Positions 25,244 through 40,024 of a DNA stretch of 44,559 bases are shown here, piece after piece (within the stretch, counting starts at the first letter, position 1; every line of letters starts with the position of its first letter). The stretch comes from Escherichia phage SM_A8. The position numbers and the translations under genes were made by a program. Where the stretch lies: sequence record PP920553.1, one strand, 5' to 3'. The notes beneath the pieces are model-generated. The model saw nothing but the letters and a program-made list of their open reading frames with translations. It made no database searches and had not been told where the DNA came from.

Positions 25244-25273
25244 ACTATAGTGCAACCAACCTGTTGGTTGCAA
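25244..25273 (-). promoter_or_regulatory. sigma70-like promoter overlapped by 22-bp inverted repeat TGCAACCAA-cctg-TTGGTTGCA (operator candidate)
   Basis: minus-sense TTGCAA-N18-TATAGT; perfect 9-bp palindromic arms at 25251-25259 and 25264-25272. Confidence 0.45.
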
Positions 25274-35669: not shown

Positions 35670-35920
35670 TATTTTGTCTCCCAGCGGTCGATTGTTTTTG
35701 CTTCGGATGCAACTGCGAAGCGAACATATTCCAGATTTGAATCCGCCCAAATATAAAAGTCGGGATTAATAAAGGTGGTGCGCTTGATTTGCGCGGGGGT
35801 GTTGCGGCGTTTGTCTATTACGGCAACGCGCGATTGAAAGCTGCCGATGCGTTCGAATAGCCAATAATAAGGGCGTTGGTCGCGTGAATCCACCGCCTCG
35901 ATTAGCGTGAAGCGTGCCAT
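35669..35920 (-). CDS. hypothetical protein
   Basis: 83-aa ORF; no motif recognised. Confidence 0.45.
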   Translation of the reverse strand: MARFTLIEAVDSRDQRPYYWLFERIGSFQSRVAVIDKRRNTPAQIKRTTFINPDFYIWADSNLEYVRFAVASEAKTIDRWETK

Positions 35921-35930
35921 TGTCTCGTCC

Positions 35931-35960
35931 TCTAAAAAGAGGCCCGCTAATCTGCGGGCC
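35931..35960 (-). terminator. intrinsic terminator after first leftward early gene
   Basis: minus-sense GGCCCGCAGATTAGCGGGCC followed by TCTTTTT. Confidence 0.5.
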
Positions 35961-35968
35961 GGAATATA

Positions 35969-36484
35969 TTAATCTTCCAGTTCGAAATAGGTTTCGACGA
36001 TTTCTTTTAGCTCTTTGTGGAAGTCTTCGACGTCGTCATCTTCCAGCTTGGCGATTGATTTGATCTCGAACGATTCCAGCAGGTCGTCGAATTCGTCGTT
36101 CGCGTCATCATCATCACCGCCTGCAATAATAGCGGCATACTGCTTGATTTCGTCGCGCATTTCGACCAGCGGATCGGCATCTTTCTTACCTTTGCCTTTC
36201 GCCGGTGCTTTCTTAGCCTTAGCCGGTTTTTCGTCTTCGGCATCGTCGTCGTCATCTTCTACGACTTCTTTTTTAGCCTTACCTTTCGCCGGTGCTTTTT
36301 TAGATTTAGCCGGTTTTTCGTCTTCAGCTTCATCGTCGTCATCTTCGACAACTTCTTTTTTGGCCTTAGACGGCTTCTTGTCTTCCTGCTTACCAACGGC
36401 AGCGCCAACGGTTTCATAATGCTTTGCAATGGTTTCCAGTGCTACTACGCCGCGAGTGATCAGGTTTACGATTTGCTCAAACAT
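35969..36484 (-). CDS. acidic/lysine-rich repeat protein (first gene of leftward early operon)
   Basis: ATG 36484 with GGAGAT RBS; two 29-aa repeats (KKEVVEDDDDEAEDEKPAKSKKAPAKGKA) from an 87-bp tandem DNA repeat; poly-D C-terminal region. Confidence 0.55.
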   Translation of the reverse strand: MFEQIVNLITRGVVALETIAKHYETVGAAVGKQEDKKPSKAKKEVVEDDDDEAEDEKPAKSKKAPAKGKAKKEVVEDDDDDAEDEKPAKAKKAPAKGKGKKDADPLVEMRDEIKQYAAIIAGGDDDDANDEFDDLLESFEIKSIAKLEDDDVEDFHKELKEIVETYFELED

Positions 36485-36679
36485 GGTATATCTCCGATTG
36501 GTTAAGTTTAGGTGTCGGCAGTTAACTTCGTCGGTGGCCTTAACATATTGCCAGGTTACGCGTTCTCCCGTTCGGGTAGTGGACCTGGTTATATAATCAC
36601 GGTTGGGAATCCTGACACTTCGATCCGGCCCCTGCGTTGCCCCTCTCCAGTTTGCGTCCTGCATCCTGTCGACGGAGTG

Positions 36680-36708
36680 AATATTAGATTGGTTGCAGAA
36701 GGGAGTCA
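36680..36708 (-). promoter_or_regulatory. leftward early promoter (P2)
   Basis: minus-sense TTGACT-N17-TAATAT with a GCAACCAA copy in the spacer; about 190 nt upstream of first leftward gene. Confidence 0.5.
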
Positions 36709-36719
36709 ACAACTAATTT

Positions 36720-36754
36720 CAAAAAAAAAGCGCCGAGGCAAAATGCACCGGCGC
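36720..36754 (-). terminator. rho-independent terminator on minus strand
   Basis: minus-sense GCGCCG-13 nt loop-CGGCGC followed by T10 (plus strand A10 at 36720-36729). Confidence 0.55.
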
Positions 36755-36778
36755 TAACCAATAAGAGACAATGAGACG
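36720..36778 (-). ncRNA. candidate small RNA (~55 nt) from P1 to the terminator
   Basis: predicted transcript starts ~7 nt after the -10 and ends at the T10 tract; no ORF or RBS inside. Confidence 0.25.
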
Positions 36779-36784
36779 GGAATT

Positions 36785-36813
36785 ATTATTACACGCGTGC
36801 GCGCCCGTTTCAA
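36785..36813 (-). promoter_or_regulatory. leftward promoter (P1) directly upstream of the minus-strand terminator
   Basis: minus-sense TTGAAA-N17-AATAAT. Confidence 0.45.
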
Positions 36814-36825
36814 TATCCAAAGGAC

Positions 36826-36854
36826 TTGACACCTTGTGGTTTTAGGTGTAGTTT
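36826..36854 (+). promoter_or_regulatory. rightward promoter for HTH gene and primase
   Basis: TTGACA-N17-TAGTTT about 30 nt upstream of ATG 36886; divergent from P1. Confidence 0.45.
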
Positions 36855-36885
36855 CATTGGTCATTAACCAACAGGAGACTGAATT

Positions 36886-37215
36886 ATGAATATCAAAGAA
36901 GCAATTGAAGTGTTATCTAATGCAATCCGCGGCGAAGCGGGTAAATCCTGGTATTACACAAATGCGGTGGATACTCTGTTATTTGAAGTGTCCAGATTAT
37001 CGCGTGCTGAGAAGGAGCTTACCGCGAAGCTAGAATTGCTCAACGGCACGGCAGCAAGCAAGCTGCAAAAACACAATGAAGAAATGGAAGAATACAAAAA
37101 ACAGGTTATCCGTCTACGTGAGGAAGGTAAATCCTGGGCGATGATCGCCGAGTTGACCGGAATTAATCAGAGCACAGTGCGCTCCTGGGTACGCAATAAT
37201 AAAACTTCAAAGTAA
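36886..37215 (+). CDS. HTH DNA-binding protein (putative transcriptional regulator)
   Basis: 109 aa; C-terminal helix-turn-helix KSWAMIAELTGINQSTVRSWVRN; first gene of rightward operon. Confidence 0.6.
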   Translation: MNIKEAIEVLSNAIRGEAGKSWYYTNAVDTLLFEVSRLSRAEKELTAKLELLNGTAASKLQKHNEEMEEYKKQVIRLREEGKSWAMIAELTGINQSTVRSWVRNNKTSK

Positions 37216-37225
37216 GGCAACGGCA

Positions 37226-39490
37226 ATGAGCTTGATTAAATTCGCTGTAACACGACCCGCTAAAAAAGGCGAAAAAGCCAGGGCGGAAAACTTCCAGATG
37301 ACGACCGAAGAGTTTTTCGAATTTATCAATGATGCGAAAGAAATCTCCTCGGTGCATATCAACAAAACGGAAGATAAAGCGGAGTATGCGCGCCGCAAGC
37401 GTAAGGCTGATGGGATTGTGGCTTATACCAGTGACGGCTTACGCCGCAAGACCAGTGCGGTGGACCGCTCGATCCTGTTCTTCGATATTGACCGTACCGA
37501 CACCCGCACCCTACGCCGCTGCCGTAAGGCTTTCATCGACGCGGGGCTGGAGCACGTATTTCACACCACAACCGGCGACCGCCACCCGCTGAAAGGCGGC
37601 ACGCGTTGCGCTCGTTTCCTGGTGCTCACTGACAAGCCTGTACCGGCGGAAGACCTGGGCCGCGTCCAGTATGCACTATTACACCAACTGGGCCTGTCAG
37701 ATGTGGACTTCGACGATTGCACGAAAGACACAAACCGCCTTATGTACCTGCCTCACCAGCAATCGGTTGTTAAGTGTCACTACGGCAAACGTGCCCGCGT
37801 CCGTCGTCTGCTTCGCCTGGCTGATAAGCTGGGGGTGGAAAAAGAGGAAGTACGCCGCGAGCTTACCCAGGGCGACGACGCAGTGGCAGACGGCATTCTG
37901 GACTGGTGCTTCCAGGCAGGATTCGAACCGCTGTCGTCCGGTCGTGGTTATGAAGTGCCATGCCCGAACGAACACCTGCACAGTGGTGAAGGGTCCACCG
38001 CTATCATGGTTAAGGATGGCGAGATCCGTTTCAAGTGTATGCACACCGGCAACGAGTGTTGCTCGGAACTGAACAGACACCAGCACCTGGCGCTACGTCT
38101 CATCGGGATACCGGACCACCTGAACGTCGAGCCGCACAACATGTCCCGTAAGCAAATCGCCGCCATCCTCCCAGGGCTGGACGACGAGGAAGTCGAATCC
38201 TTATATGAACATATTGTGGATGCGGTTGGCGACGGCGAAGAATACGGCGTGTGCACCGATGCGGATCTGGATAACGAGCCGGTTGCGCTGTTCAGTAAGC
38301 ACGACCCGATCATAGAAGGCCTGGTCAACTTCAAATCGACCTGGTATATGGCTGGCGAGTCGAACATCGGTAAATCGTTCTACGTGCTTGGGCAGATGGG
38401 CGCGGTTGCCGCTGGTATTCCGTTCGGCGGTGCGAAGGTCGTCCAGTCTCATTGCTTCTATTTCGACGCGGAAGGTGGCGAAGCCTCTAACCAGCGCAAA
38501 GAAGCATTGCAGATTAAATATGAGCACGACCTGGACAAGCTGCACATTATAGACCTGCAGTCACGCGGCTGGGATATCACCAGCAAATCAGGCTTGCGCG
38601 AAGTTATCAGCTTTATCAACCGCACCGCTAACGGCGAACCGGTTGGCCTGGTGGCGTTCGACTCACTCAACCAGACTGTTGCGTTGCGGTCCGCGGATGC
38701 TAAACCGTTCGACGAGAACAACGCCAGCGATATGGGTGAAGTGGTCAAAGCGCTGAAGGCCATCGCGGAAAATACAGGTGGCAGTGCGGGCGTCATTCAC
38801 CACCCGGCGAAAGGTGCAAACGGCAGCAGATCCCCCCGCGGGTCCGGCGCGCTGCATGGTGCTGTCGATTCCGCGTTCTTCCTGGAGCAACCGGACGACA
38901 ACCAGCCCGGACAATTGAACCTGTATCATGAGAAGGCACGTAACGGCATTAAGCAAGCGCCGCGCGGCTTCGTCCTGCTCAAGTGCAAGGTTAAGGTGGA
39001 TCTCCGCAAGTCCGAAGCGTTCGAAGCCCACCAGTCCACCAGCACCGGGCCGGACTTCGGCGATGTGGTTGCCGGTTGGGACGTCAAGCCAATTGCCTCC
39101 ACGCCACGCGACGAGACTCTTTACCTCGTACCGGTCGCCCTGGCACCGTTCGCCATCGAACAGGCGAAGGCTGCGGGCAAGGCCGCAGTTAAGGAGGAGA
39201 ACGCCGCAGGCCCGCGCAACGAAAAAGAGAAAGTGCTTTATGCGGCGCTGGAAAAACTGATGGAAGATAACCCGGACCATACCGGATTCAGTAAATCGGC
39301 AATTGTCCGCCAGGCTGGACTAGCGAAAGGTGGCACATCGACGAAGGCAATCGACGATATGGTCGAGCGCGGCGTACTAGGTTTTTACACAGACCCACAC
39401 ACCGGGGCCATCTATGGGTCGTCTAATATCGTCATCAAAACGAATATACCCATCACGCTTTCGGCGACCGATGACGACCTGAAAGATTAA
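37226..39490 (+). CDS. DNA primase / RepA-DnaB-like helicase fusion protein
   Basis: 754 aa; zinc-binding cluster CPNEHLHSGE...CMHTGNECC; Walker A GESNIGKS, Walker B-like LVAFDSLNQ, VIHHPAKG motif. Confidence 0.7.
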   Translation: MSLIKFAVTRPAKKGEKARAENFQMTTEEFFEFINDAKEISSVHINKTEDKAEYARRKRKADGIVAYTSDGLRRKTSAVDRSILFFDIDRTDTRTLRRCRKAFIDAGLEHVFHTTTGDRHPLKGGTRCARFLVLTDKPVPAEDLGRVQYALLHQLGLSDVDFDDCTKDTNRLMYLPHQQSVVKCHYGKRARVRRLLRLADKLGVEKEEVRRELTQGDDAVADGILDWCFQAGFEPLSSGRGYEVPCPNEHLHSGEGSTAIMVKDGEIRFKCMHTGNECCSELNRHQHLALRLIGIPDHLNVEPHNMSRKQIAAILPGLDDEEVESLYEHIVDAVGDGEEYGVCTDADLDNEPVALFSKHDPIIEGLVNFKSTWYMAGESNIGKSFYVLGQMGAVAAGIPFGGAKVVQSHCFYFDAEGGEASNQRKEALQIKYEHDLDKLHIIDLQSRGWDITSKSGLREVISFINRTANGEPVGLVAFDSLNQTVALRSADAKPFDENNASDMGEVVKALKAIAENTGGSAGVIHHPAKGANGSRSPRGSGALHGAVDSAFFLEQPDDNQPGQLNLYHEKARNGIKQAPRGFVLLKCKVKVDLRKSEAFEAHQSTSTGPDFGDVVAGWDVKPIASTPRDETLYLVPVALAPFAIEQAKAAGKAAVKEENAAGPRNEKEKVLYAALEKLMEDNPDHTGFSKSAIVRQAGLAKGGTSTKAIDDMVERGVLGFYTDPHTGAIYGSSNIVIKTNIPITLSATDDDLKD

Positions 39491-39600
39491 TTTGTGCGCG
39501 CATTGGTTGCCGATATGGGAATTCCCATATCGCTAAAAGATTAAATTTTGCGCGCATTGGTTGCCATTTAGGGTGTTTTTATCCCGCCGCATTGGTTGCC
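39484..39600. repeat. iteron-like repeats and perfect 20-bp palindrome downstream of primase (origin-like region)
   Basis: three CGCATTGGTTGCC copies (39499-39511, 39553-39565, 39588-39600), inverted copy at 39872-39884; palindrome GATATGGGAATTCCCATATC at 39512-39531; AT-rich stretch 39601-39650. Confidence 0.5.
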
Positions 39601-39639
39601 GTGTAGTGTAAATATATTGAATAGTTATGCAGTTTTATT

Positions 39640-39812
39640 GCATAAAGTAAGCGGGACAAAAAGCGGGACAAACAAGGGGCGGGACAAAGCGGGACAGCAC
39701 CCCTGTCCCGCCACGGATGGCGCGGCTTCCAGAGGAGCGGGACAGGCGGGACAAACCCCAGTCTTTCAGACTAGACGGGGGTCAGTGGCCCCCCTCGTCT
39801 GAGACTGAATAA
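39640..39812. repeat. 173-bp repeat element copy B with GCGGGACA array and GC-rich hairpin
   Basis: colinear with 11918-12090, no indels; CGGGACA copies at identical offsets (12, 24, 40, 50, 98, 107); central ~26 nt diverged. Confidence 0.7.
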
Positions 39813-39967
39813 AATCCGGGGATTGCAAAATACACGGCAGCATGATGCTAAGTGCGGTCGTCGATGAACTAGGCAACCAATGCGGGTTGTATTATGCTGA
39901 GTGAAAAATGCGGTTTGCAGTTGCAGCAGATAGCGATCAACTTTTTCATGCGCGTGATTAATATTGG

Positions 39968-39996
39968 TTGCGTTCACCCCGGCACCATGCTATATT
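39968..39996 (+). promoter_or_regulatory. rightward early promoter
   Basis: TTGCGT-N17-TATATT; TTGGTTGC copies overlap the -35 and follow the -10; 21-mer TATATTGGTTGCACACCAACA matches the minus strand at 6187-6207. Confidence 0.5.
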
Positions 39997-40024
39997 GGTT
40001 GCACACCAACATGAGGACTGAACA

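What the first reader, a model, noticed from the sequence alone, without database searches (positions are those of the whole stretch)
36680..36854. Divergent early promoter hub with a promoter-proximal terminator predicted to yield a ~55-nt leftward RNA
On the minus strand, TTGAAA-N17-AATAAT (36785-36813) is followed about 25 nt downstream by a GC stem (36730-36754) and T10 (36720-36729). A second, stronger promoter TTGACT-N17-TAATAT (36680-36708) lies just beyond the terminator and would drive the leftward early operon through a ~190-nt leader. On the plus strand, TTGACA-N17-TAGTTT (36826-36854) drives the HTH gene and primase. The P1-terminator pair looks like a discrete small RNA gene, or an attenuator needing antitermination, in the main control region.
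Basis: partly seen in the sequence, partly recalled or inferred. Interest (0 to 1): 0.65.

Follow-up and report, generated by a model that had tools for sequence, protein, structure and literature searches.

The report
Phage small-RNA gene beside structured leader
In the control region of this E. coli phage, a strong promoter followed 25 bases later by a terminator looks like a real gene for a ~55-nt regulatory RNA that can pair with the start sites of the phage's early and replication genes. The neighbouring 190-nt leader holds a previously uncatalogued structured RNA shared by several phage groups.

Summary
The window is a Dhillonvirus (HK578-like coliphage). In the 401-bp divergent intergenic region, P1 (TTGAAA-17-TGT-AATAAT, minus strand) is the best sigma-70 match in the genome. 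It is followed by a -16.9 kcal/mol hairpin plus U9 (not U10), then P2, with PR on the other strand.

Six diverged lineages all keep the order -10, 5' core G(U)CUCAUUGUC, terminator, P2. The terminator stems differ in sequence but still pair. The unstructured 5' part of the RNA is complementary to translation start regions of neighbouring early genes. These are the primase-helicase start codon (up to -31 to -36 kcal/mol, z -3.5 to -4.7, in relatives) and, in this window, the HTH gene and the first leftward gene.

Best reading: a discrete ~55-nt trans-acting anti-start-site RNA. An attenuator is less likely. No transcript data exist.

Separately, the P2 leader contains a 158-nt RNA (36515-36672, minus strand) with strong covariation and no Rfam match. 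It occurs behind sigma-70 promoters in Dhillonvirus, Drexlerviridae, Murrayvirus and others, and is cleanly absent from some Dhillonviruses. A genome-wide operator-like motif, RTTGGTTGC, also marks these promoters.

The parts
36785..36813 (-). P1 promoter of the small RNA: -35 TTGAAA (36813-36808), 17-nt GC-rich spacer, TG (36793-36792), -10 AATAAT (36790-36785)
   Evidence: 10/12 plus TG, the best sigma-70 match in the window. Nearly invariant across Dhillonviruses. A -10 is kept at the same place in diverged lineages.
36723..36777 (-). Predicted ~55-nt small RNA: 5'-GUCUCAUUGUCUCUUAUUGGUUA, then the terminator hairpin, then the U-tail. The start is inferred as G at 36777, 8 nt after the -10. 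The 3' end is inferred within the U-tract.
   Evidence: the 5' 22 nt are unpaired, hairpin -16.9 kcal/mol, z -3.7. Ends are inferred, not mapped.
36767..36777 (-). Conserved 5' core (seed) GUCUCAUUGUC. Its complement GACAAUGAG resembles a start-codon context.
   Evidence: The core G(U)CUCAUUGUC is present in all six lineages. It is complementary to the primase start region in each.
36755..36766 (-). Second part of the single-stranded region, UCUCUUAUUGGUUA-type anti-Shine-Dalgarno / anti-UUAACCAA segment (window-type lineages only)
   Evidence: complementary to the TAACCAANNRGAGA motif at both flanking start sites.
36721..36754 (-). Intrinsic terminator: stem-loop 36754-36730 (GCGCCGGUGCAUUUUGCCUCGGCGC) plus U9 at 36729-36721
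   Evidence: Compensatory stem changes in relatives: GCGCCG, UCCCCG, AUCCCUG, AUCCCCAG, AUCCUCG, ACCCGCAAA.
36681..36709 (-). P2, early leftward promoter: -35 TTGACT (36709-36704), -10 TAATAT (36686-36681). It carries the operator-like motif ATTGGTTGC (36688-36696, + strand reading) in its spacer.
   Evidence: Relatives have TTGACA-18-TATCAT/TATTAT, 11/12.
36515..36672 (-). 158-nt structured leader RNA at the 5' end of the P2 transcript: closing helix P1, GGA-loop hairpin P2, long irregular helix P3, helix P4, GNRA hairpin P5
   Evidence: Covariance model hit of 98.6 bits, E 2e-18. 95.6% of cells paired against 79.3% in shuffles, 14 pairs with compensatory change. No Rfam match.
36484..36510 (-). 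Translation start region of the first leftward gene (171-aa acidic protein), UUAACCAAUCGGAGAUAUACCAUG. Candidate target.
   Evidence: duplex -17.7 kcal/mol, 0 of 500 shuffled seeds as good.
36826..36854 (+). PR, rightward promoter of the HTH-primase operon: TTGACA-17-TAGTTT
   Evidence: TTGACA and GTGTAGTTT are conserved. In diverged lineages PR (TTGCAC/TTGACT-17/18-TATATT) overlaps P1.
36864..36888 (+). Translation start region of the HTH gene (UUAACCAACAGGAGACUGAAUUAUG). Candidate target. It also forms an imperfect palindrome, ATTGGT-N5-ACCAAC, from 36858.
   Evidence: duplex -17.9 kcal/mol, p 0.01.
37222..37230 (+). Primase-helicase start, GGCAAUGAG. It can form 9 pairs (one G-U) with the small-RNA core CUCAUUGUC.
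   Evidence: Weak here (-16.4, z -1.7) but strong in relatives.

Best explanation
P1 and the terminator form a self-contained gene for a ~55-nt non-coding RNA. Host sigma-70 RNA polymerase makes it, reading leftward and back-to-back with PR.

The RNA has an unstructured 5' end of 22-24 nt. This holds a conserved core, GUCUCAUUGUC, plus a pyrimidine-rich anti-Shine-Dalgarno stretch. It is followed by a GC hairpin and a U9 tail, the layout of enterobacterial base-pairing small RNAs.

It most likely acts in trans. It would pair with translation start regions of early genes on both sides of the hub and so lower or time their translation. The candidate targets are the primase-helicase start codon, the HTH regulator gene, and the first leftward gene.

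The terminator also keeps P1 transcription from running into P2. P2 is the real leftward early promoter, and its mRNA begins with a separate 158-nt structured RNA domain.

What is shown: the sequence elements, their conservation, the compensatory terminator changes and the complementarity. What is inferred: that the transcript exists, where its ends lie, that pairing occurs in vivo, and that the effect is repression.
For: (1) P1 is the best sigma-70 match in the genome and the only one with an extended -10. The hairpin plus U9 is a strong terminator, and the 5' 22 nt are predicted unpaired.

(2) Across about 20 Dhillonvirus intergenic regions, the P1 hexamers, the transcribed 5' region and the U-tract are almost invariant, while the flanks vary.

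(3) Five diverged lineages keep the order -10, ~7 nt, G(U)CUCAUUGUC, variable segment, hairpin, U8-13, P2. They are L069, L076, L077, L078 and L079, whose HTH proteins are 63-100% identical to that of L069, the query. Their six stem sequences differ but all fold at -13.8 to -17.7 kcal/mol. That pattern is what selection on a terminator gives.

(4) The 5' region is complementary to the primase start region, start codon included, in every lineage:
- L078: -36.2 kcal/mol (z -3.5)
- L069: -31.2 (z -4.7), as 12 + 11 bp in two blocks
- L079: -29.0 (z -4.4)
- L077: -24.6 (z -2.2)
- L076: -19.6 (z -3.6), 12 nt perfect
- window: -16.4 (z -1.7)
One position co-varies. At primase +6, A pairs with the RNA's U in L076, and C pairs with G in L069. 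L077 carries a lineage-specific segment that matches its own primase codons.

(5) In this window the RNA pairs with the first leftward gene's start region (-17.7; 0 of 500 shuffles as good) and with the HTH start region (-17.9; p 0.01). The 14-nt motif TAACCAANNRGAGA occurs only three times in the genome: at these two start sites and, as its complement, in the RNA.

(6) The + strand reading frame across the locus is not conserved; it is only 3-5 codons long in L078.
Against: - No transcript data exist for any Dhillonvirus. Both RNA ends are inferred.
- In this window the complementarity is modest. A genome-wide duplex scan puts other sites first, and the two flanking start sites rank only about fifth among 214 ORF starts.
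- The cognate versus non-cognate matrix shows no clear preference for cognate pairs. The lineages share ancestry, so the core-primase match is at most a few independent events.
- The + strand of the locus looks like a copy of a start region. The complementarity could therefore be a relic of duplication.
- The TTAACCAA part overlaps a DNA motif family (RTTGGTT) that is over-represented in promoter regions. Some of the conservation may therefore be at the DNA level.
- HTH start-region variants (CTGAGGGC, CTGGGGGC) change with no compensating change in the RNA.
Confidence: 0.5

Rival explanations
1. Promoter competition and insulation, with the RNA as a by-product. P1 exists to compete with or modulate PR, because the two RNA polymerases bind back-to-back or overlapping sites. 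The terminator only stops P1 transcription from occluding P2.
For: In four diverged lineages, the -35 of each promoter lies inside the spacer of the other, so they cannot both be occupied. P2 starts 10-25 nt after the U-tract in every lineage. In other phages a terminator also sits directly upstream of the promoter that drives the leader RNA.
Against: It does not explain why the first ~11 transcribed nucleotides are the most conserved part. It does not explain their complementarity to start regions, with lineage-specific extensions of 12 + 11 bp. In this window the promoters do not overlap; their -35 elements are 12 bp apart.
Confidence: 0.2
2. Attenuator of the lambda PR'-tR' type. P1 transcripts normally stop at the terminator. 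A phage factor later makes RNA polymerase terminator-resistant, so P1 then drives the leftward operon, reading through 36721 and also the internal terminator at 35941-35960.
For: A strong promoter sits with a terminator ~25 nt downstream. A second conserved terminator inside the leftward operon directly abuts the next gene's ribosome-binding site, so read-through is needed there.
Against: P2 lies between the terminator and the genes in all lineages, which makes P1 read-through redundant. No Q-like or other antiterminator family was found among the 13 early proteins scanned against Pfam and PHROGs. This is a partial scan, and most of those proteins are of unknown function. The conserved 5' core has start-site complementarity that an attenuator does not need.
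Confidence: 0.12
3. DNA-level element. The conserved stretch is an operator or a relic copy of a start region, left by duplication when the HTH gene was acquired. The apparent RNA gene is incidental.
For: The + strand reads like a start region: TAACCAATAAGAGACAATGAG here, and GGAGTCCGAACG..GACAATGAGCAA in L069, which mirrors that phage's HTH-end/primase junction. RTTGGTT motifs are operator-like and cluster in regulatory regions.
Against: A relic would decay. Instead the region is the most conserved part of the spacer, it stays framed by a promoter and a terminator on the opposite strand, and the terminator shows compensatory change. Diverged lineages lack the TTGGTTA half-site in the RNA gene.
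Confidence: 0.1
4. Plus-strand reading. The hairpin is a 5' stabiliser, and TAACCAATAAGAGACAATG is the ribosome-binding site of a 24-codon mini-ORF (36771-36845) transcribed rightward.
For: A Shine-Dalgarno-like AAGAGA sits before an ATG. A weak + strand promoter-like site, TTGCAG-15-TAATTT, follows the ATTGGTTGC motif at 36688 (read from the sequence).
Against: The frame is not conserved. There are 1-nt indels in JLBYU37 and rolling, and only 3-5 codons in L078. The spacing from Shine-Dalgarno to ATG is 2-3 nt. The hairpin is followed by U's only on the minus strand.
Confidence: 0.03

Closest known systems
Phage P1/P7 c4 antisense RNA (represses the antirepressor gene by pairing with its ribosome-binding region through two short complementary blocks); from my own knowledge
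   Same: A small phage RNA encoded near, but not overlapping, its target. It has short, imperfect, two-block complementarity to a translation start region, and the antisense segment looks like an inverted copy of the target site (12 + 11 bp in L069).
   Different: c4 is cut out of the same operon transcript as its target, by RNase P. Here the RNA has its own sigma-70 promoter and intrinsic terminator and is read divergently from the target operon. There is no sequence similarity.
Lambda OOP RNA and P22 sar RNA (short constitutive antisense RNAs in phage control regions); from my own knowledge
   Same: About 55-77 nt, own sigma-70 promoter, intrinsic terminator, sited in the early control or replication region, predicted to lower expression of a neighbouring early gene.
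   Different: OOP and sar overlap their targets and are fully complementary (cis-antisense). This RNA overlaps no gene, because PR transcripts start about 80 nt away. It would pair through 9-15 nt seeds.
Plasmid copy-control antisense RNAs (R1 CopA, ColIb-P9 Inc RNA) that block translation of the replication initiator; from my own knowledge
   Same: A small RNA aimed at the start region of the replication protein gene. It is made constitutively from next to the rep promoter, which gives a dosage-dependent brake.
   Different: Those RNAs are cis-encoded and highly structured, and they pair by loop-loop kissing. Here the seed is linear and at the 5' end. The target may include non-replication early genes.
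Lambda PR'-tR' 6S RNA with Q antitermination; from my own knowledge
   Same: A strong promoter with a promoter-proximal intrinsic terminator that gives a short RNA.
   Different: No Q-like protein was found in the proteins scanned. An independent promoter, P2, lies after the terminator. No Q-binding element or pause signal was identified.
HK022 put RNAs (PMC9378689), compared with the 158-nt leader
   Same: A cis RNA element placed just downstream of an early sigma-70 promoter in a coliphage whose operon contains terminators.
   Different: put is ~70 nt with two stem-loops. The leader is 158 nt with a closing helix and five helices. Dhillonviruses without the leader keep the same downstream terminator, so read-through does not depend on it.

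Membership tests
Intrinsic (Rho-independent) terminator | GC-rich hairpin immediately followed by a run of U on the transcribed strand | tested here: met
   -16.9 kcal/mol stem-loop at 36754-36730, then U9. Only the minus strand has the U run. The feature is kept, with compensatory changes, in six lineages.
Sigma-70 promoter (P1, P2, PR) | -35 and -10 hexamers 16-18 bp apart; transcription start mapped | tested here: inconclusive
   Consensus matches are 10/12 plus TG for P1, 9/12 for P2 and 9/12 for PR, and the elements are conserved. No start site has been mapped.
Enterobacterial trans-acting base-pairing small RNA (Hfq class) | Own promoter; unstructured conserved seed; terminator hairpin with a U-tail of at least 6 | tested here: met
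   with the seed conserved in six lineages.
Enterobacterial trans-acting base-pairing small RNA (Hfq class) | Binds Hfq or ProQ and regulates targets through seed pairing in vivo | not testable with these tools
   Only predicted duplexes are available.
Cis-antisense RNA (OOP, sar, CopA type) | Transcribed opposite to, and overlapping, its target gene or leader | tested here: not met
   The RNA (36777-36723) overlaps no ORF and no predicted mRNA. PR transcripts start near 36861 and P2 transcripts near 36673.
Lambda-type Q antitermination module | Q-family protein encoded by the phage | tested here: inconclusive
   No antiterminator family was found among the 13 early proteins scanned. The rest of the proteome was not scanned, and most of the scanned proteins are of unknown function.
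Any Rfam family (small RNA and leader) | Covariance-model match at the gathering score | tested here: not met
   No gathering-level hit in the window. At E up to 10, only terminator-driven sub-threshold hits fall over the small RNA, and nothing falls over 36515-36672.
HK022 put antiterminator RNA (for the leader) | About 70 nt, two stem-loops, needed for read-through of downstream terminators | tested here: not met
   The leader is 158 nt with five helices and a different architecture. The downstream terminator is kept in phages that lack the leader.
Riboswitch (for the leader) | Conserved aptamer coupled to an expression platform (terminator or Shine-Dalgarno-sequestering helix) | tested here: inconclusive
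   An aptamer-like closed multi-helix domain is present. The 15-40 nt between it and the start codon differ between lineages and show no shared terminator or anti-Shine-Dalgarno helix.

The most novel reading that the evidence does not exclude
The hub is an RNA-based early-gene and replication timer of a kind not described for virulent coliphages. A small RNA is made from a promoter that is interlocked with the promoter of its own target operon. It co-evolves with the primase and early-gene start sites and shuts off their translation as it accumulates. In parallel, the leftward early mRNA carries a portable 158-nt structured RNA of a new class. This RNA swaps between unrelated phage genera together with its promoter and binds a host machine, such as RNA polymerase, the ribosome, CsrA or a nuclease.
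Probability: 0.2. Interest if true: 0.8.

Novelty: new variant of a known kind. Interest (0 to 1): 0.62.

Why it matters
Regulatory RNAs of virulent coliphages are almost unstudied, and Dhillonviruses are common therapy and model (BASEL) phages with no known regulatory circuit.

If the RNA is real, it gives a simple, testable switch for early-gene and replication-gene expression. All the parts are named here: P1, the seed, the targets, and the overlap between PR and P1.

The 158-nt leader is a new, strongly covarying RNA family. It is confined to virulent enterobacterial siphoviruses and travels as a cassette with its promoter. Its conserved unpaired blocks imply a specific partner, so it is a direct lead for biochemistry.

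The RTTGGTTGC motif and the sigma-region-4-like HTH protein give a candidate regulon for the same circuit.

Tried and rejected
- **Rfam.** At gathering and at permissive thresholds it gave nothing, or only terminator-driven sub-threshold hits.
- **BLAST of the small RNA and the leader** against 5,426 E. coli genomes and 72,556 plasmids gave no match, so neither is a mimic of a host or plasmid element at that sensitivity.
- **Genome-wide duplex scan.** The flanking start sites are not the top sites, so window-only complementarity was judged weak. The case rests on the cross-lineage comparison.
- **Loose 16-nt pattern in IMG/VR.** All 20 extra loci were chance matches.
- **Metagenome scan.** It found only the lineages already known.
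- **MAFFT plus RNAalifold on the leader.** This mis-aligned the variable helices and found only part of the structure. The single-sequence fold was no better than shuffles (z +0.4). A hand-derived structure with a covariance model was needed.
- **Leader as a put-like antiterminator.** Rejected as membership, and weakened as mechanism.
- **Leader or plus-strand mini-ORF as coding.** Indels are not multiples of three and the frames are not conserved.
- **Helix P3 alternatives for the leader** (GUGUC/GACAU). Correlated but non-canonical changes (G-C to A-A) leave them unresolved.
- **Literature searches** for Dhillonvirus or HK578 transcription or small RNAs, and for a Drexlerviridae non-coding RNA, found nothing relevant.

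Full report
**What the window is.** BLAST of 36400-36900 finds 192 phage records, nearly all Dhillonvirus (HK578-like virulent E. coli siphoviruses), at up to 98% identity. The finding lies in a 401-bp divergent intergenic region, 36485-36885.
- To the left, on the minus strand, is an operon that starts with a 171-aa acidic protein (ATG at 36484), followed by small proteins and a PD-(D/E)XK/DUF2800 nuclease.
- To the right, on the plus strand, is a 109-aa helix-turn-helix protein whose C-terminus matches HTH_23 and sigma-70 region 4. A primase-helicase (AAA_25) gene follows 10 nt later.
- One GenBank record already marks a terminator here, with no interpretation.

**Observation check.**
- P1 is TTGAAA-17-AATAAT with an extended-10 TG. 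It is one of two sites in the genome that score 10/12 and the only one with TG. Random sequence would give about four such sites, so the score alone is not evidence.
- The hairpin at 36754-36730 folds at -16.9 kcal/mol and is followed by U9. Only the minus strand has the U-run.
- P2 scores 9/12, so it is not stronger than P1 by consensus.
- PR has a perfect -35 and a weak -10.

**The P1-terminator unit is conserved as a unit.**
- In about 20 Dhillonvirus intergenic regions, the P1 hexamers, the first ~24 transcribed nucleotides and the U-tract are almost invariant. In LM40P1-type phages the stem changes from GCGCCG/CGGCGC to UCCCCG/CGGGGA.
- I then fetched diverged relatives through the HTH protein. 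They are L069 from IMG/VR and L076-L079 from NCBI, Logan and ENA. Their HTH proteins are 63-100% identical to that of L069, the query.
- All keep, on the minus strand, a -10 (TATTAT, TAAGAT or TAATAAT), then ~7 nt, the core G(U)CUCAUUGUC, a variable segment, a hairpin, U8-13, and then P2.
- The six stems differ in sequence and all fold at -13.8 to -17.7 kcal/mol.
- In four of these lineages P1 and PR overlap, with each -35 inside the other's spacer. In this window ~45 extra bp separate them.
- A 24-codon plus-strand frame across the locus is not conserved.

**What the RNA could do.** Starting at G36777, the RNA is 5'-GUCUCAUUGUCUCUUAUUGGUUA, then the hairpin, then U9. The first 22 nt are unpaired.
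- Complementarity within this window:

| Start region | Duplex (kcal/mol) | Shuffle test |
|---|---|---|
| First leftward gene | -17.7 | 0 of 500 as good |
| HTH gene | -17.9 | p 0.01 |
| Primase | -16.4 (9 pairs over the AUG) | p 0.03-0.05 |

- The motif TAACCAANNRGAGA occurs three times in the genome: at the two flanking start sites and, as its complement, in the RNA. I derived this pattern after seeing the data.
- Taken alone these values are unremarkable. A genome-wide scan ranks other sites higher.
- The relatives change the picture. Pairing with each phage's own primase start region:

| Lineage | Duplex (kcal/mol) | z | Note |
|---|---|---|---|
| L078 | -36.2 | -3.5 | |
| L069 | -31.2 | -4.7 | UUGCUCAUUGUC with GACAAUGAGCAA, plus a second 11-bp block on the end of the HTH gene |
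| L079 | -29.0 | -4.4 | |
| L077 | -24.6 | -2.2 | |
| L076 | -19.6 | -3.6 | 12 nt perfect |

- One position co-varies: primase +6 A with the RNA's U in L076, and C with G in L069. L077 has its own segment that matches its own primase codons.
- The L069 RNA also carries an anti-Shine-Dalgarno stretch that matches its first leftward gene (-22.4, p 0.008). By eye, the sequences suggest the same for L078 and L079.
- I therefore rank a trans-acting anti-start-site RNA first.
- Caveats: the cognate versus non-cognate matrix is not selective; the lineages are related; and the plus strand of the locus looks like a copied start region, so the complementarity may have begun as a duplication.

**Rivals.**
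- Promoter competition plus insulation explains the overlap of P1 and PR, and the constant placing of P2 after the terminator. It does not explain the conserved, start-site-complementary 5' end.
- A lambda-like attenuator is weakened by P2's position and by the absence of an antiterminator family among the 13 early proteins scanned.
- A purely DNA-level role is partly supported by the motif family described below. It does not account for the compensatory terminator changes.

**The 190-nt leader is a structured RNA family.**
- BLAST showed that window 36557-36662 matches unrelated siphoviruses at 77-94% identity, always in unannotated gaps and always in the sense orientation of the surrounding operon. 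These are Drexlerviridae (Warwickvirus swan01, PHB17, KMI8, Motto), Murrayvirus Lumpael, Arya/KA2-1/IME279, HeidiAbel_Bas97 and Serratia MQ-4.
- A sigma-70-type -10 sits at a fixed 10-15 nt upstream in nearly every lineage, so the element starts 3-5 nt after the transcription start.
- I derived five helices by hand and built a covariance model from them. The model finds one copy per genome, here at 36515-36672 on the minus strand (98.6 bits). It finds none in Dhillonviruses that lack the element.
- On 26 sequences, 95.6% of cells pair, against 79.3% in shuffles and 21-38% in slid controls. Fourteen pairs show compensatory change, concentrated in P1, P4 and P5. The alignment was fitted to the model, which favours the structure.
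- The P3 helix is invariant or changes only between G-U and G-C. Long conserved unpaired blocks (for example GAUCGWAGUGUCAGGAUUCCCAACCGUGA) and a GGA-loop hairpin suggest a specific partner.
- It has no Rfam match and no match in E. coli genomes or plasmids.
- Some Dhillonviruses replace it cleanly with ~20 nt yet keep P2, the small-RNA unit and the downstream terminator. It is therefore a portable promoter-leader cassette and is not needed for read-through.
- Its function is unknown. My guesses are mRNA 5' protection or translation enhancement, or binding of a host factor. All are inferred.

**Context noticed.** RTTGGTTGC occurs about 20 times, usually inside promoter-like sites and sometimes as a palindrome. 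One copy lies in the P2 spacer. The diverged lineages have two tandem copies there. The 535-bp non-coding region after the primase gene has six copies plus seven GCGGGACA repeats, which looks like an origin or a second control region.

**Verdict.** The small-RNA reading is supported by comparison but is unproven. It is a new variant of a known kind, with a genuinely new RNA family next door.

Noticed in passing
window 36515-36672 (minus strand); also L002, L003, L004, L005, L011, L013-L015, L019, L020, L052-L054: A 158-nt structured RNA at the 5' end of the P2 transcript. It has five helices with strong covariation and no Rfam, E. coli or plasmid match. It is shared by Dhillonvirus, Drexlerviridae, Murrayvirus, Arya-like, HeidiAbel and Serratia MQ-4 phages, and always sits directly behind a sigma-70-type promoter.
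   Followed up: yes
L027-L030, L057, L059, L060, L065 compared with window 36516-36660: Some Dhillonviruses lack the leader RNA. About 140 nt are cleanly replaced by ~20 unrelated nt, while P2, the small-RNA unit and the flanking genes stay. The leader therefore behaves as an exchangeable cassette.
   Followed up: yes
window, about 20 sites, e.g. 6204/6218, 22300, 25254-25269 (palindrome), 26540/26557, 29514, 36688, 39502-39994 (six copies), 43144/43167: The motif RTTGGTTGC is strongly over-represented: AACCAAY occurs 27 times against 10.5 expected. It sits in or next to promoter-like sites, often paired. It is a likely operator or activator box, perhaps for the sigma-region-4-like HTH protein. 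The same GTTGGTTGCA appears at the -35 of the leader promoter in an unrelated phage (L019).
   Followed up: partly
window 39491-40024: A 535-bp non-coding region after the primase-helicase gene. It holds seven GCGGGACA(A) repeats, three GCGC-ATTGGTTGCC repeats and a promoter-like TTGCGT-17-TATATT before the next gene. It is a candidate replication origin or second control region.
   Followed up: no
window 35931-35960 (minus strand): A strong intrinsic terminator (GGCCCGC-loop-GCGGGCC, then UCUUUUU) lies inside the leftward operon. Its U-run leads straight into the ribosome-binding site of the next gene (ATG at 35920). It is conserved in all Dhillonviruses checked, so downstream genes need read-through.
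   Followed up: partly
window 36886-37215 (+): The first rightward gene is annotated in GenBank variously as transposase, resolvase or Gam nuclease inhibitor. It matches only HTH_23 and Sigma70_r4_2 in its C-terminal 40 residues, so it is more likely a small transcription regulator. It has at least three allele groups, and its start region varies.
   Followed up: partly
window 35969-36484 (minus strand): The first leftward gene encodes a 171-aa protein made of alternating acidic runs (DDDDEAEDE) and KKAPAKGK repeats. It has no Pfam family. As the first early product it could be a DNA mimic or a nucleoid or defence antagonist.
   Followed up: no
L078 1259-1500 (minus strand): In one diverged lineage the small-RNA core is tandemly repeated (GUCUCAUUGUCUCAUUGUCUC). 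This gives two or three registers for pairing with a CAAUGAG start site.
   Followed up: no
window 36858-36872 (+): The PR leader contains an imperfect palindrome, ATTGGT-CATTA-ACCAAC, just upstream of the HTH Shine-Dalgarno sequence. It could be an autoregulatory operator, which complicates reading TTAACCAA purely as an RNA target.
   Followed up: no
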